DNA from: Escherichia coli
GTDB lineage: Bacteria; Pseudomonadota; Gammaproteobacteria; Enterobacterales; Enterobacteriaceae
DNA length: 64,000 nucleotides
NCBI RefSeq assembly: GCF_003334765.1
Contig: NZ_QOWT01000009.1
Reading direction: 5' to 3' (one strand)
Shown here: positions 32,447 through 35,550 of the stretch, in pieces
How the letters are laid out: each line of letters starts with the position of its first letter
How positions within the stretch are numbered: the stretch's first letter is position 1
Position numbers and translations under genes: made by a program
The notes under the pieces: generated by a model
Databases searched by the model: none
What the model was told of the DNA's origin: nothing
The model's input: only the letters and a program-made list of their open reading frames with translations

Positions 32447-33325
32447 TTACGCCAAATTTACAGAGAAGATTTCCTCGAGCATTGCCCCCGCCAGACGCTG
32501 CGCTGAACAGAGTCGTGGCATCCCCAGCGCGACAGTTTGCCAGCGTTGGGTCACTGACCAGCAAACGGGTTGTTTATCTGCCGTGGTCCACTTTCCCAGC
32601 CAACTTAAAAAATCAGCATGCTCCCCGCCCGTCGGAACGGTCGAAGAGGCAAACCACTGATGGTAATAGTGACGCGTGGTCGGTGCCGCATTGATACTCT
32701 CTGCCAGATGTTGTGTCGCTTTCTCGAGCAAATCACCCAGCAACAACGCCACCGCTTGCGGGCTTCCCAGACGGCAGGCATCGCCAAATGCCCCCCAGCG
32801 CAACTCCTCCAGAACGATAAAACAGCGCCCAGGCAACGACCAGGCGTTATACGCCCCAGCACGCCAGCGGGTAAAAATTTGCTCGCTCTGATCACCTGCC
32901 TGCACCAGTAGGCCTCGTTGCGTTAACGCCTTTTCCTTCCAGCGACAACGGGCTGAAAACCACTCATACAAGGCGGCAATTTGCTGGGGGAGCTCCGGGA
33001 AAGCAGAGTGCTGGCGGTGATCCATTTTTTGCAGCAGCGCCAGATGCTGCGCGATCTGCGTCAGTGCCAGATGACCGGGATCCAGCATCGACGCCAGTTT
33101 TTCCACCAATGTCAGACGCAGGCTAAGCGGCGCATTTAACATGCCGCCGTTCGTCCATGTCTGAAGCTGCACACGCGAAAGAAGTTCCTGCATCAGTCGT
33201 TCACGAAACTGCTGCTGATGGGCTTGTGGAAGGCGGGCATCATCACCCTGCGCCAGATCCACTAAAAAGCGGGGATAAACCGACTCCAGCACGCGACCGG
33301 GGCCGTCAAGTAACGTCTTGGTCAA
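32447..33325 (-). CDS. yjcZ: YjcZ (292 aa), partner protein encoded downstream of crfC
   Basis: Full ORF; start overlaps crfC stop by 4 nt (operon). Confidence 0.88.
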   Translation of the reverse strand: MTKTLLDGPGRVLESVYPRFLVDLAQGDDARLPQAHQQQFRERLMQELLSRVQLQTWTNGGMLNAPLSLRLTLVEKLASMLDPGHLALTQIAQHLALLQKMDHRQHSAFPELPQQIAALYEWFSARCRWKEKALTQRGLLVQAGDQSEQIFTRWRAGAYNAWSLPGRCFIVLEELRWGAFGDACRLGSPQAVALLLGDLLEKATQHLAESINAAPTTRHYYHQWFASSTVPTGGEHADFLSWLGKWTTADKQPVCWSVTQRWQTVALGMPRLCSAQRLAGAMLEEIFSVNLA

Positions 33326-35550
33326 TATCGTTCTGCCGTGAAAAGTGTTTGAATATCATCGCGTAACAGCTGGGCGTCGGTGTAAATCCAGCCGTGAGTC
33401 ATCACAGTCTGCTGCAATTGCTGCTGCATCAGCCTGACCACCGATTCATTTTGTTGACGCAGAGCCAGACTTTCGCGTAAACGCGTCTGTAATTCCGTCA
33501 AACATGAAGCGAACTCAGCGAAAAAAGTATTCATGCCTGCCGTAACAGATTCATCGACCTGCTCTGCCAGAACTTTAGCCATTTGTTGGCAATAGAGATC
33601 GACTTCTGCGCTTAATGCTCGTTGCAACACACTGTAATCAACCGTTTCTGTCGGTGATTTCTCATTTCCCCGTCCCCAGTCGGGCTGATTCAACCAGCGC
33701 GAAAAAGTCTCACGCACAACGCCTAAACGCGTGCTCTGCTCGTCCGTTGCTTCCTGGCGCGAAATGACTTCACTGAACAGCTGGCGAGTGTTGAAGTGGG
33801 GAACTACGCCGTGAAAAACAGGAAAATGAAACCCAGGACGAAACCCTGACTCGCTCAATTCCATTTTGACTTGTTGCTCAATGGGGCGAATAACATCGGT
33901 TAACACCCGGCAAAGGGTGGATTCAAGCTCGGCAAAACGCAGCGTAAAGTCGCGACTGATGGTGTTCTGCGCCGTCTGTAACAGTGTCTCACAGCGGGTA
34001 CGAATCTCGCTTAACGGCTCCGAATCATCCTGAAACAAGGCGGCTAACTGCACCTTCAGCGCATCTTGCTGTTGACGCAGAAAGTGGTTGGCGGAGGTCA
34101 GGGCCAGCTCGATTTCATGTTTAATCTCGCCGCTCACCTGCGCCTGATTGAGTTGCAATAGCTGCAAACTTTCTTCGATCTGGTGGATATTTTGCCGCAA
34201 TTGTTCACAAGCGACGTTTAACCCGTGCGCACGAAAATCCAGGTATTCCCGCGCCTGCTGCGCGTAATTCAACAGTTTATGCGCGGCAGATCGCAGAGCA
34301 TACAACGAGGCGTTAGCGTAAGCGGCATGAAGCAACGCCTGAATTGGCTGGGCGAACAGCGAATCTTCCCACAACTGATCGGCAGCATGACGAATATGTT
34401 CGAGGTCCGCCAGATCGGCATGACGCCAGCGCCTGCCAAGCGCGGCATGGGCAAAATCTTCCACCCAGCGTTGTTGCTCTGGCGGTGGTAACTTACCGTT
34501 GTTGGCTAACTCATAGCGCGCCCGATTCGCCAGGTAGCCCCACATCGACGACACCGGAAATATCTGCTGTGGCGTAATACAGCCTTTCATCAGCGTCCCG
34601 GAAATCAGTGCCCGCACCTGGTCGGCGTCGTCACTGTTACGATCCTGTTGATCGAACTTATTGACCAGCACGTACAGCGGCACCGATTGCCCCACCGCCA
34701 AAATCGCCTCACGGACCTCTTCATCGGAGATCGATTTCAGTTGCGTATAATCCAGCACCGCCAGTACCGCCGAGGCGCGTGCCAGCTGCTGGTTAAGCAT
34801 TTTTTGCAGATGCGGTTGCCCGGCTTCATTTGGCCCGGGGGTATCCAGTAACGTCAACTGACCGGGATAACTCTCCAGCCCCGCTAGATGGACAAACTCC
34901 ACTTCAATCACGGGAATATGCTCAATGGCGGCGTAAGCAGAAAAAGGAAAATCGACGTCCAGCGCCTTCGCCAGTCGCACTAAATCATTCAAACTTTTCA
35001 GACAATGAAAAATAGGCTGGGCACCCAGATAATATTTTTCGAAAGCGACGCCATTTTCGATCCGCTGCATAAGCGCACGCATATCTTTATCTATTTCCAG
35101 CACATCGGTCAGATGCTTAATATCGCAATCACGCAGGCGCTGTTGTAATTGTTGAATTAAACAATCGATTGGCGCGACATGTGAAAAATGCAGTACCGGT
35201 TCCTTTTGCCCGGGCGTATGGCGAATAAGCGTCGGCAGCGCAGTCATTGGGCGATTACGATTAGGCAGAACCTCCGTACCAACAATGGCATTAATGGTGG
35301 TTGATTTCCCTGCTTTCATGGTACCGACAATTGCAAGCACCATTTCCAGTCGGGAAATTTTACGCAACTCATTATTCAGCATCGCGTGACGTTCGGCGAT
35401 ATTAGGCTGACTCCAGGGTAAAGCCAGTTGTGGCGCGTCGTCTCCGGGTACAGAGAGAGGCATTTTTTCCAGTAACTGCAACTGTTGGCGAGAAAGCTGT
35501 AACAGGCGTTCAGCCTCCTGACTTAACTCATACAGGGTCTGTGTGTACAT
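33322..35550 (-). CDS. crfC: CrfC (YjdA), bacterial dynamin-like GTPase (742 aa)
   Basis: Full ORF; P-loop GTMKAGKSTTINAIVG near N-terminus, long coiled-coil-rich C-terminal region; recognised. Confidence 0.92.
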   Translation of the reverse strand: MYTQTLYELSQEAERLLQLSRQQLQLLEKMPLSVPGDDAPQLALPWSQPNIAERHAMLNNELRKISRLEMVLAIVGTMKAGKSTTINAIVGTEVLPNRNRPMTALPTLIRHTPGQKEPVLHFSHVAPIDCLIQQLQQRLRDCDIKHLTDVLEIDKDMRALMQRIENGVAFEKYYLGAQPIFHCLKSLNDLVRLAKALDVDFPFSAYAAIEHIPVIEVEFVHLAGLESYPGQLTLLDTPGPNEAGQPHLQKMLNQQLARASAVLAVLDYTQLKSISDEEVREAILAVGQSVPLYVLVNKFDQQDRNSDDADQVRALISGTLMKGCITPQQIFPVSSMWGYLANRARYELANNGKLPPPEQQRWVEDFAHAALGRRWRHADLADLEHIRHAADQLWEDSLFAQPIQALLHAAYANASLYALRSAAHKLLNYAQQAREYLDFRAHGLNVACEQLRQNIHQIEESLQLLQLNQAQVSGEIKHEIELALTSANHFLRQQQDALKVQLAALFQDDSEPLSEIRTRCETLLQTAQNTISRDFTLRFAELESTLCRVLTDVIRPIEQQVKMELSESGFRPGFHFPVFHGVVPHFNTRQLFSEVISRQEATDEQSTRLGVVRETFSRWLNQPDWGRGNEKSPTETVDYSVLQRALSAEVDLYCQQMAKVLAEQVDESVTAGMNTFFAEFASCLTELQTRLRESLALRQQNESVVRLMQQQLQQTVMTHGWIYTDAQLLRDDIQTLFTAERY

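What the first reader, a model, noticed from the sequence alone, without database searches (positions are those of the whole stretch)
32447..35550. Dynamin-like GTPase operon crfC(yjdA)-yjcZ
The 742-aa protein has an N-terminal P-loop (GTMKAGKSTTINAIVG) followed by a very long helical, coiled-coil-rich region (LQLLQLNQAQ... and similar), the hallmark of bacterial dynamin-like proteins. It is translationally coupled (4-nt overlap) to a 292-aa partner of unknown fold. Bacterial dynamins are implicated in membrane remodelling, chromosome handling and possibly phage defence, and this pair remains comparatively under-studied.
Basis: partly seen in the sequence, partly recalled or inferred. Interest (0 to 1): 0.35.

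Follow-up and report, generated by a model that had tools for sequence, protein, structure and literature searches.

The report
Known E. coli CrfC/RdcA–RdcB GTPase pair

Summary
On the minus strand, a 742-aa ORF (33322-35550) overlaps a 292-aa ORF (32447-33325) by 4 nt (TTGA; the second gene starts with TTG). The window is E. coli chromosome, and the pair is present in 5419 of 5426 complete E. coli genomes. RefSeq annotates it as crfC and rdcB.

The large protein matches Pfam Dynamin_N (E 7e-18) and the NCBIfam CrfC equivalog (1597 bits). It has invariant G1-G4 motifs and long C-terminal helices. The partner is PF13990 (YjcZ), all-helical, with no solved structural relative.

Published work gives the function. 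RdcA/RdcB bind and activate the diguanylate cyclase DgcE through its MASE1 domain, with GTP acting as an inhibitor. CrfC is also reported to bind the sliding clamp. A FliA promoter inside crfC drives yjcZ.

Added here:
- The clamp motif (Q41) is not conserved outside E. coli.
- The intragenic FliA promoter is conserved across Enterobacteriaceae, with reduced synonymous variation.
- A mobile paralogous trio (dynamin, YjcZ-like, patatin phospholipase) sits in defence-type islands, on plasmids and in about 45% of E. coli genomes. A 2026 paper had already noted it.

Verdict: already known, low interest. The island paralog is the better lead.

The parts
33322..35550 (-). crfC (yjdA, rdcA): 742-aa, 84.4-kDa dynamin-like GTPase
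   Evidence: ORF. RefSeq CDS 'clamp-binding protein CrfC'. NCBIfam NF007368 equivalog at 1597 bits over residues 1-742. Pfam Dynamin_N.
32447..33325 (-). rdcB (yjcZ): 292-aa, 32.9-kDa all-helical partner protein with a TTG start
   Evidence: ORF. RefSeq CDS 'diguanylate cyclase regulator RdcB family / YjcZ-like'. Pfam PF13990 at E 1.3e-143 over residues 21-287. AF2 model with pLDDT 72 and pTM 0.76.
33322..33325 (-). 4-nt overlap TTGA: the yjcZ TTG start overlaps the crfC TGA stop
   Evidence: Read directly from the sequence. In 73 of 80 enterobacterial loci the crfC homologue's last sense codon ends on the first base of yjcZ, as in E. coli; in the other 7 it ends 3 or 6 nt upstream.
34720..35337 (-). 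Dynamin-type G domain (Pfam match, residues 72-277; G4 lies further downstream at 297-300)
   Evidence: Pfam Dynamin_N at E 7.3e-18. Nostoc BDLP 2j68 at E 1.7e-6, improving to 3e-8 with a broader profile.
35302..35325 (-). G1 / P-loop GTMKAGKS (residues 76-83; K82)
   Evidence: G76, T77 and A80-S83, including K82, are invariant in 26 enteric and 17 broader homologues; M78 and K79 are nearly so. The K82A phenotype is published.
35242..35244 (-). G2 / switch I threonine T103
   Evidence: Invariant. T103D abolishes function and DgcE binding (PMC6510439).
34834..34845 (-). G3 DTPG (residues 236-239)
   Evidence: Invariant.
34651..34662 (-). G4 NKFD (residues 297-300)
   Evidence: N297, K298 and D300 are invariant in both alignments.
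35416..35430 (-). Reported beta-clamp-binding motif 41-QLALP-45
   Evidence: The motif is present and is reported in PMC6374313. Q41 is not conserved outside E. coli.
33550..33577 (-). Intragenic FliA (sigma-28) promoter inside crfC that drives yjcZ: TAAAGTTC-N11-GTCGATGA
   Evidence: Exact match to the ChIP-seq-mapped site of Fitzgerald 2014. The same site lies 253 nt before the yjcZ start in most enterobacterial loci. The codons it overlaps show low synonymous variation.
33328..34353 (-). C-terminal helical stalk region of CrfC (residues about 400-741), including a conserved aromatic-rich loop at 569-592
   Evidence: AF2 helices 400-505, 513-567 and 639-738. G569 is invariant in both alignments; F570, F586 and F592 are invariant in the 26 enteric sequences.
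35559..35565 (-). Shine-Dalgarno AAGGAAG of crfC
   Evidence: Read from the sequence.
35551..35950 (.). AT-rich (GC 0.34) intergenic region shared with the divergent yjdM (phnA); holds the still unmapped crfC promoter
   Evidence: No canonical sigma-28 site was found here. This agrees with Fitzgerald 2014, who state that the upstream FliA promoter had been mispredicted.

Best explanation
The locus encodes the RdcA(CrfC/YjdA)-RdcB(YjcZ) system, a soluble dynamin-like GTPase and its tightly bound helical partner. According to published genetics and two-hybrid work, RdcA self-associates, binds RdcB, and docks onto the membrane-embedded MASE1 domain of the diguanylate cyclase DgcE. This promotes DgcE dimerisation and c-di-GMP synthesis, which turns on CsgD, curli and cellulose.

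GTP acts as an inhibitor. The nucleotide-free form is the active one, and hydrolysis is needed to clear GTP, so the fall in cellular GTP at entry into stationary phase is the proposed signal.

Shown here from sequence: the identity of the genes, the intact and invariant G1-G4 motifs, the helical stalk, the absence of transmembrane segments, strict adjacency of the two genes in 80 of 80 enterobacterial loci, and a conserved FliA promoter inside crfC that gives yjcZ its own motility-linked transcription.

Inferred: RdcB is a nucleotide-state cofactor of RdcA (GTPase-activating or nucleotide-release factor). Clamp binding is a secondary trait specific to E. coli.
For: Identity:
- 100% DNA identity to E. 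coli chromosomes annotated crfC/rdcB.
- NCBIfam CrfC equivalog above its cut-off.
- PF13990.
- Calculated masses of 84.4 and 32.9 kDa equal those given for RdcA and RdcB.

GTPase:
- Dynamin_N at E 7e-18.
- G1 GTMKAGKS, T103, DTPG and NKFD are conserved across enteric and distant homologues.
- The best PDB relatives are bacterial dynamin-like proteins: BDLP and Campylobacter DLP1/2.

Function (published):
- rdcA, rdcB and dgcE knockouts phenocopy one another and are non-additive.
- RdcA binds itself, RdcB and DgcE-MASE1.
- T103D is inactive and K82A is active (PMC6510439).
- Both genes were recovered independently as low-c-di-GMP mutants (PMC13031359).

Coupling:
- In all 80 enterobacterial genomes sampled, a crfC homologue ends within 6 nt upstream of the yjcZ start; in 73 of them the junction is as in E. 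coli.

Regulation:
- The FliA promoter inside crfC is mapped, present in the window and positionally conserved.
- Normalised codon entropy is 0.35 inside the promoter elements against 0.72 outside them (one-sided Mann-Whitney p = 6e-4).
Against: No experiment was done here, so the mechanism rests on one laboratory's genetics and two-hybrid data plus one independent screen.

The biochemical role of RdcB is unknown. My AlphaFold model of CrfC was poor (mean pLDDT 60; G domain below 50), so the dynamin fold of the G domain is supported by sequence only.

A second published function (clamp binding and nucleoid partition) is not explained by the DgcE model.

The synonymous-site test uses related sequences and only 5 codon columns, so its p-value overstates independence.
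Confidence: 0.85

Rival explanations
1. The primary role is chromosome handling. CrfC oligomers bind the beta sliding clamp through 41-QLALP, hold sister replication forks together and position nucleoids; yjcZ is incidental.
For: The motif QLALP is present at residues 41-45. Published work reports clamp binding, anucleate cells in delta-crfC and Q41A mutants, and foci at nucleoid poles (PMC6374313 citing Ozaki 2013). RefSeq names the protein 'clamp-binding protein CrfC'.
Against: Q41 and the motif are not conserved. Other Escherichia species have PLTLP. Citrobacter, Kosakonia and Enterobacter have V(L/Q)PLHF. E. fergusonii lacks the segment altogether. Meanwhile the G domain is almost invariant. 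Pfiffer et al. note that clamp binding was independent of GTP, that most of the in-vivo work used plasmid expression, and that the knockout grows normally. This model does not explain the obligatory YjcZ partner.
Confidence: 0.3
2. The pair is a membrane-remodelling or anti-phage dynamin system of the DynA or Eleos (LeoA/LeoBC) type.
For: It belongs to the dynamin family and gives weak PADLOC matches to LeoBC and LeoA (E 6e-6 and 3e-5). Paralogues at about 30-33% identity lie with a patatin phospholipase in defence-type islands.
Against: The locus is core, not accessory: it is found in 5419 of 5426 genomes, at a fixed position between proP and yjdM. No effector gene lies within 8 kb in any of 80 enterobacterial loci. 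There are no transmembrane or strongly hydrophobic segments (maximum KD19 of 1.21 and 0.91). The PADLOC hits cover only the generic G domain and are far too weak for system membership. There is no match in phage genomes.
Confidence: 0.08

Closest known systems
RdcA/RdcB (YjdA/YjcZ) activator of diguanylate cyclase DgcE, E. coli K-12 (Pfiffer et al. 2019, PMC6510439)
   Same: These are the same genes. The annotation is identical, the protein sizes match, and K82 and T103 are at the published positions.
   Different: Nothing of substance differs. The window's allele is an ordinary E. coli variant.
CrfC clamp-binding nucleoid partition factor (Ozaki 2013; Taniguchi 2019, PMC6374313)
   Same: It is the same protein, and the 41-QLALP motif is present.
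   Different: The motif is confined to E. coli proper, so this activity is probably lineage-specific.
Bacterial dynamin-like proteins with solved structures: Nostoc BDLP (2j68), Campylobacter DLP1/DLP2 (5owv), SynDLP, IniA, LeoA
   Same: All are large GTPases with a dynamin-type P-loop/switch I region and a long helical stalk. They are the best PDB sequence matches and the top, though weak, Foldseek matches.
   Different: Sequence similarity is detectable only around G1-G2. CrfC has no hydrophobic paddle or TM segment. It is reported to be soluble and to act on a protein partner (DgcE MASE1) rather than on lipid. Its partner is not a second dynamin but a 292-aa helical protein.
Island-borne trio of dynamin family protein, RdcB-like protein and patatin-like phospholipase (noted in E. 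coli MP1, PMC12922286)
   Same: The first two genes are homologous to the core pair: 33% identity over the full length of CrfC and 30% over YjcZ. Gene order and overlapping junctions are the same.
   Different: The trio carries a third, overlapping patatin gene (Pfam E 2e-24). It is mobile: it occurs in islands, on plasmids, in multiple copies and in 45% of E. coli genomes. It sits beside defence genes. The core pair has none of these properties.
Eleos / LeoABC dynamin defence system
   Same: Its GTPases belong to the dynamin family.
   Different: PADLOC scores are marginal and restricted to the G domain, and the partner proteins are unrelated.

Membership tests
Dynamin superfamily / bacterial dynamin-like proteins | Dynamin-type G domain recognisable by profile | tested here: met
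   Pfam Dynamin_N at E 7.3e-18 over residues 72-277. BDLP 2j68 at E 1.7e-6 with the single sequence and 3e-8 with a family profile.
Dynamin superfamily / bacterial dynamin-like proteins | Intact G1 (GxxxxGKS), G2 (Thr), G3 (DxxG) and G4 (N/TKxD) motifs | tested here: met
   GTMKAGKS at 76-83, T103, DTPG at 236-239 and NKFD at 297-300. The catalytic residues are invariant in two alignments.
Dynamin superfamily / bacterial dynamin-like proteins | Large size (over 70 kDa) with a helical stalk or bundle after the G domain | tested here: met
   84.4 kDa. Predicted helices at 400-505, 513-567 and 639-738 with pLDDT of about 65-85.
Dynamin superfamily / bacterial dynamin-like proteins | Three-dimensional fold of the G domain matches dynamin | tested here: inconclusive
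   The AF2 model has pLDDT below 50 across residues 74-121 and 202-335. Foldseek ranks SynDLP, IniA, BDLP and LeoA first, but at E of 8e-3 or worse and TM of about 0.2.
Dynamin superfamily / bacterial dynamin-like proteins | GTP hydrolysis and self-assembly | not testable with these tools
   GTPase activity and oligomerisation are reported in the literature.
Dynamin superfamily / bacterial dynamin-like proteins | Membrane-binding element (paddle, TM segment or PH-like domain) | tested here: not met
   No hydrophobic segment was found (maximum 19-residue Kyte-Doolittle score 1.21). The protein is described as soluble and lacking a membrane-binding motif. The conserved aromatic loop at 569-592 was not tested.
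NCBIfam NF007368 (CrfC equivalog) | Full-length score above the curated cut-off | tested here: met
   1597.2 bits against a cut-off of 1146, covering residues 1-742 of 742.
Pfam PF13990 (YjcZ-like / RdcB family) | Full-length profile match, including the LEELRWGxFGD signature | tested here: met
   E 1.3e-143 over model positions 1-272 of 272. W154, L175, W177, G178, G181, P253 and P270 are invariant in 48 diverse members.
RdcA/RdcB-DgcE signalling module | Adjacent, co-oriented dynamin-like and YjcZ genes at a core chromosomal locus | tested here: met
RdcA/RdcB-DgcE signalling module | Physical interaction with, and activation of, DgcE through MASE1 | not testable with these tools
   Published only. 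dgcE is not in the window.
Beta-clamp-binding proteins | Clamp-binding pentapeptide (QL[SD]LF-like) conserved among orthologues | tested here: not met
   QLALP is present in E. coli. Q41 is replaced or the segment deleted in other Escherichia species, Citrobacter, Kosakonia, Enterobacter and E. fergusonii.
Eleos (LeoA/LeoBC) anti-phage system | Significant full-length matches to the LeoA and LeoBC models, and a two-dynamin operon | tested here: not met
   LeoBC at E 5.8e-6 and LeoA at E 3.2e-5, partial and at the level of the G domain. The partner has no PADLOC hit.

The most novel reading that the evidence does not exclude
The core crfC-rdcB pair may be a domesticated, effector-less relative of a widespread mobile three-gene module: a dynamin-like GTPase, a YjcZ-like protein and a patatin phospholipase. 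That module lies in defence-type islands of Pseudomonas, on enterobacterial plasmids and in about 45% of E. coli genomes, and it may be an untested membrane-targeting anti-phage or abortive-infection system.

On this reading the GTPase/YjcZ pair is a general GTP-gated switch that controls a membrane-associated enzyme. That enzyme is a phospholipase in the mobile form and DgcE in the core form. Island paralogues might also cross-talk with DgcE.

Homology and gene context are shown here. The direction of evolution, the defence function and any cross-talk are not.
Probability: 0.3. Interest if true: 0.6.

Novelty: already known. Interest (0 to 1): 0.22.

Why it matters
For the window itself the result is a sanity check. 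The scan correctly recognised a known core E. coli signalling pair that links the cellular GTP level and the flagellar regulon to c-di-GMP and biofilm matrix production.

Three side results are useful:
1. The clamp-binding motif behind the RefSeq product name 'clamp-binding protein CrfC' is specific to E. coli. The G domain, the YjcZ partner and the internal FliA promoter are conserved across Enterobacteriaceae. This favours the RdcA/RdcB signalling role as the ancestral function.
2. NCBI now names distant YjcZ-like proteins 'diguanylate cyclase regulator RdcB family', even where they sit in dynamin/patatin operons on mobile elements. That is probably over-annotation.
3. The mobile trio is common and experimentally untouched. 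It is a reasonable candidate for a new dynamin-based defence system.

Tried and rejected
- **AlphaFold of CrfC.** A 26-sequence, closely related alignment gave a poor model (mean pLDDT 60; G domain below 50).
- **Foldseek with that model.** The results are only suggestive.
- **Sigma-28 promoter upstream of crfC.** None is canonical: the best match is 10 of 16, and the GCCGAAAA element has no properly spaced -35. This agrees with Fitzgerald 2014, who say the upstream FliA promoter was mispredicted.
- **Intrinsic terminator after yjcZ.** Only a weak candidate was found, at 32233-32245.
- **PADLOC.** There is no system-level hit for the core pair or for the distant trio. The ZorA and HamB hits are weak and cover only part of each profile, so I treated them as spurious.
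- **The search for related loci with the 48-sequence YjcZ alignment.** It failed because no block was conserved enough. The reduced alignment worked, but only the 80 closest loci, all Enterobacteriaceae, were kept. Distant contexts had to come from individual look-ups.
- **Rfam.** No RNA family lies inside the finding's coordinates.
- **Phage genomes.** There is no YjcZ-like match.
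Full report
**1. Observation**

The region holds two co-oriented ORFs on the minus strand. One is 33322-35550 (ATG start, 742 aa). The other is 32447-33325 (292 aa).

The junction reads CGA-TAT-TGA-CC. The quoted peptides are present at residues 76-91 and 462-471. crfC has an AAGGAAG Shine-Dalgarno sequence 8 nt before its ATG and a 400-bp AT-rich upstream region with GC 0.34.

**2. Identity**

A megablast of 32200-35950 against 5426 complete E. coli genomes found the region in 5419 of them, at 97.4-100% identity in the listed rows, almost always once and on the chromosome. 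In RefSeq the two CDSs have the same ends and are called crfC ('clamp-binding protein CrfC') and rdcB ('diguanylate cyclase regulator RdcB family' or 'YjcZ-like family'). They lie between proP and yjdM, with the neighbourhood eptA-basR-pmrB-pmrR-proP | rdcB-crfC | yjdM-yjdN-phnC. This is a core E. coli locus.

**3. The large protein**

- Pfam gives Dynamin_N at E 7.3e-18 over residues 72-277.
- NCBIfam gives the CrfC equivalog at 1597 bits over the full length, against a cut-off of 1146.
- The four GTPase motifs are G1 GTMKAGKS (76-83), G2 T103, G3 DTPG (236-239) and G4 NKFD (297-300). Their key residues are invariant in 26 enterobacterial homologues and in a 17-sequence alignment reaching down to 32% identity.
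- No structure of this family has been solved. The best PDB sequence relatives are Nostoc BDLP (2j68; E 1.7e-6, or 3e-8 with the broader profile) and the Campylobacter DLP1/2 pair (5owv).
- My AlphaFold model was poor: mean pLDDT 60, and below 50 through most of the G domain.
- The C-terminal half is predicted with moderate confidence as very long helices (400-505, 513-567, 639-738).
- Foldseek with this model puts bacterial dynamin-like proteins first (SynDLP, IniA, BDLP, LeoA), but with weak scores.
- There is no transmembrane or strongly hydrophobic segment.

**4. The partner**

An exhaustive HMMER search of 1.84 billion representative proteins found only 200 clusters at E of 1e-3 or better. 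The family is small. Its signature is LEELRWGxFGD, and across 48 diverse members the invariant residues are W154, L175, W177, G178, G181, P253 and P270.

**5. What it does (literature)**

Pfiffer et al. 2019 renamed yjdA and yjcZ as rdcA and rdcB. They reported the following:
- Deleting either gene phenocopies deletion of dgcE for macrocolony matrix, CsgD, curli expression and c-di-GMP, and the effects are non-additive.
- In two-hybrid assays RdcA binds itself, RdcB and the MASE1 domain of DgcE.
- RdcA-T103D (hydrolysis-defective) is inactive and no longer binds DgcE.
- RdcA-K82A (binding-defective) is fully active.
- GTP is therefore an inhibitor, and the fall in GTP on entry into stationary phase is the proposed signal.
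- RdcB's role is open; a GAP or a nucleotide-release factor was suggested.

A 2026 FRET-sorting transposon screen again recovered dgcE, rdcA and rdcB as low-c-di-GMP mutants.

Separately, Ozaki 2013 and Taniguchi 2019 describe CrfC as a protein that binds the sliding clamp through 41-QLALP and helps nucleoid partition. Pfiffer et al. regard that as a possible moonlighting role.

The calculated masses of the two ORFs, 84.4 and 32.9 kDa, equal the values given for RdcA and RdcB.

**6. Transcription**

Fitzgerald et al. 2014 mapped a FliA binding site inside yjdA (TAAAGTTCTGGCAGAGCAGGTCGATGAA). It drives yjcZ. [quoted passage not shown] A later study confirmed FliA-dependent activity of this intragenic promoter.

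The exact 28-mer is in the window at 33550-33577 on the minus strand, about 225-250 nt before the yjcZ start. I found no canonical sigma-28 site in the crfC upstream region. 'Operon' is thus only part of the picture, because yjcZ has its own motility-regulon promoter.

**7. New comparative points on the core pair**

(a) Adjacency. In 80 genomes from some 20 enterobacterial genera, a crfC homologue ends within 6 nt upstream of the yjcZ start, and none has a patatin gene within 8 kb. The genera include Escherichia, Citrobacter, Kosakonia, Enterobacter, Leclercia, Lelliottia, Phytobacter, Trabulsiella, Yokenella, Franconibacter and Siccibacter. In 73 of the 80 the junction has the same layout as in E. 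coli.

(b) Clamp motif. Q41 is not conserved. Other Escherichia species have PLTLP, most genera have V(L/Q)PLHF, and E. fergusonii lacks the segment. The region from residue 58 to about 345 is almost invariant.

(c) Length. Escherichia CrfC is 742 aa, whereas most other genera have 784 aa. Escherichia lacks a 32-residue stalk segment and 8 N-terminal residues.

(d) Promoter conservation. The intragenic FliA promoter lies at the same position (-253 from the yjcZ start) in most of these loci. The consensus is TAAAGCTT-N11-GTCGATGT, and 63 of 80 loci score at least 12 of 16.

(e) Synonymous constraint. Codons under the -35 and -10 elements show little synonymous variation: CGT in 49 of 50, AAA in 63 of 65, GAT in 66 of 68, and Leu as TTR in 61 of 67 sequences rather than the CTG seen in the other 6. 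The spacer codons vary freely. Normalised codon entropy is 0.35 inside the elements against 0.72 outside (one-sided Mann-Whitney p = 6e-4). The sequences are related and only five columns qualify, so this is indicative, not proof.

**8. A mobile paralogue**

Distant YjcZ homologues (22-31% identity) lie in a different, three-gene arrangement: a dynamin-family GTPase (about 794-810 aa), a YjcZ-like protein (about 300 aa) and a patatin-like phospholipase (about 355 aa). Stop and start codons overlap or abut. The patatin match is Pfam E 2e-24, and the GGGxKG, GxSxG and DGG motifs are visible.

The GTPase of this trio is a true CrfC relative:
- 45% identity over the first 510 residues for a metagenomic example.
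- 33% over the full length for the E. coli island copy.
- The YjcZ-like protein is 30% identical to the core YjcZ.

Where the trio occurs:
- In Pseudomonas it sits on integrase-bearing islands between WYL/BrxR-type regulators. It lies next to JukA, a PDC-M26A candidate and an HNH nuclease, and in P. aeruginosa downstream of recBCD-like genes.
- It also occurs in Methylomonas.
- It is on 44 plasmids of E. coli, Klebsiella, Enterobacter and Citrobacter, flanked by IS elements.
- It is in 2443 of 5426 complete E. coli genomes, with up to 5 copies. In O157:H7 EDL933 it lies in the tRNA-Ser island between cah and the yeeS/cbtA block.
- It has no match in phage genomes.

PADLOC v2 has no model for it. 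I found no paper that tests it. [quoted passage not shown] They were strongly induced in a lysogen and are about 30% identical to core RdcAB, and the authors called them putative defence systems (PMC12922286).

An intermediate two-gene form without patatin also exists (L002: YjcZ 33% and dynamin 44% identical).

**9. Interpretation**

The window feature is the known RdcA(CrfC)/RdcB system. The best-supported mechanism is GTP-gated docking of an RdcA/RdcB complex on DgcE-MASE1.

The comparative data favour this over clamp binding as the conserved function, because everything that model needs is conserved and the clamp motif is not. The conserved items are the G motifs including T103, the obligatory partner and the motility-regulon promoter.

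It remains plausible, though untested, for the island trio.

One unifying inference is that the dynamin/YjcZ pair is a nucleotide-gated switch for a membrane-associated enzyme, patatin in the mobile form and DgcE in the core form. I mark this as inference.

**10. Verdict**

The feature is already known, and interest is low (0.22). The most novel reading not excluded is domestication from, or cross-talk with, a mobile dynamin-patatin conflict system, at a probability of about 0.3.

Noticed in passing
L100 12001-16354 (E. coli O157:H7 EDL933); L098 6590-10961; L099 6593-10946; L092-L097; L085; L089-L091: A mobile three-gene module (dynamin-family GTPase, YjcZ/RdcB-like protein, patatin-like phospholipase) is paralogous to crfC-rdcB at 30-33% identity. 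It is present in 2443 of 5426 complete E. coli genomes, on 44 enterobacterial plasmids, and in Pseudomonas islands next to WYL/BrxR regulators, JukA, PDC-M26A and integrases. No functional test was found in the literature; it has been noted only in PMC12922286.
   Followed up: partly
window 33550-33577 (-): The FliA promoter inside crfC that drives yjcZ (Fitzgerald 2014) is positionally conserved across Enterobacteriaceae. Synonymous variation is reduced in the codons it overlaps (normalised codon entropy 0.35 against 0.72).
   Followed up: yes
window 35416-35430 (-), CrfC residues 41-45: The published clamp-binding motif QLALP, including the critical Q41, is confined to E. coli. It reads PLTLP in other Escherichia species and V(L/Q)PLHF in most genera, and it is deleted in E. 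fergusonii. The RefSeq product name 'clamp-binding protein CrfC' is nevertheless applied to all of them.
   Followed up: partly
window about 34000-34030 (-), CrfC near residue 510-512: Escherichia CrfC (742 aa) lacks a 32-residue stalk segment and 8 N-terminal residues that are present in the 784-aa orthologues of Citrobacter, Kosakonia, Enterobacter and others.
   Followed up: no
window 33775-33846 (-), CrfC residues 569-592: A conserved aromatic-rich loop (GFRPGFHFPVFHGVVPHFNTRQLF) lies between the long stalk helices. G569, F570, F586 and F592 are invariant in the 26 enteric sequences. It might be the site that contacts DgcE-MASE1 or the membrane. This was not tested.
   Followed up: no
window 36298-36597 (+): Three tandem 100-nt REP/BIME-type repeats lie between yjdM and yjdN. 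Each matches Rfam naRNA4 (RF02564) at 95-111 bits.
   Followed up: partly
window 30473-30638 (-): There is a full-length match to the enterobacterial sRNA STnc630 (RF02052, 182 bits) just downstream of proP, overlapping the pmrR/pmrB end region.
   Followed up: no
L091 2293-3921; L089 and L090 downstream of patatin: In one metagenomic lineage the dynamin/YjcZ/patatin trio is followed 4 nt later by a NERD plus UvrD-like helicase gene (PADLOC RTasNERD-Hel at E 2e-18; C3a187 NERD+UvrD at E 9e-13). It may be a fourth component or a neighbouring defence gene.
   Followed up: no
database annotation: Distant YjcZ-like proteins in patatin operons of Pseudomonas, Methylomonas, Gallionella and plasmids are labelled 'diguanylate cyclase regulator RdcB family protein', or in older records 'chemotaxis protein' or 'methyl-accepting chemotaxis protein'. 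These labels are probably over-transferred.
   Followed up: no
E. coli strain TOE17 (hit H1): In this strain the crfC-rdcB region matches in two pieces with an IS1 transposase annotated under the match. This suggests an IS1 insertion in or next to the pair.
   Followed up: no
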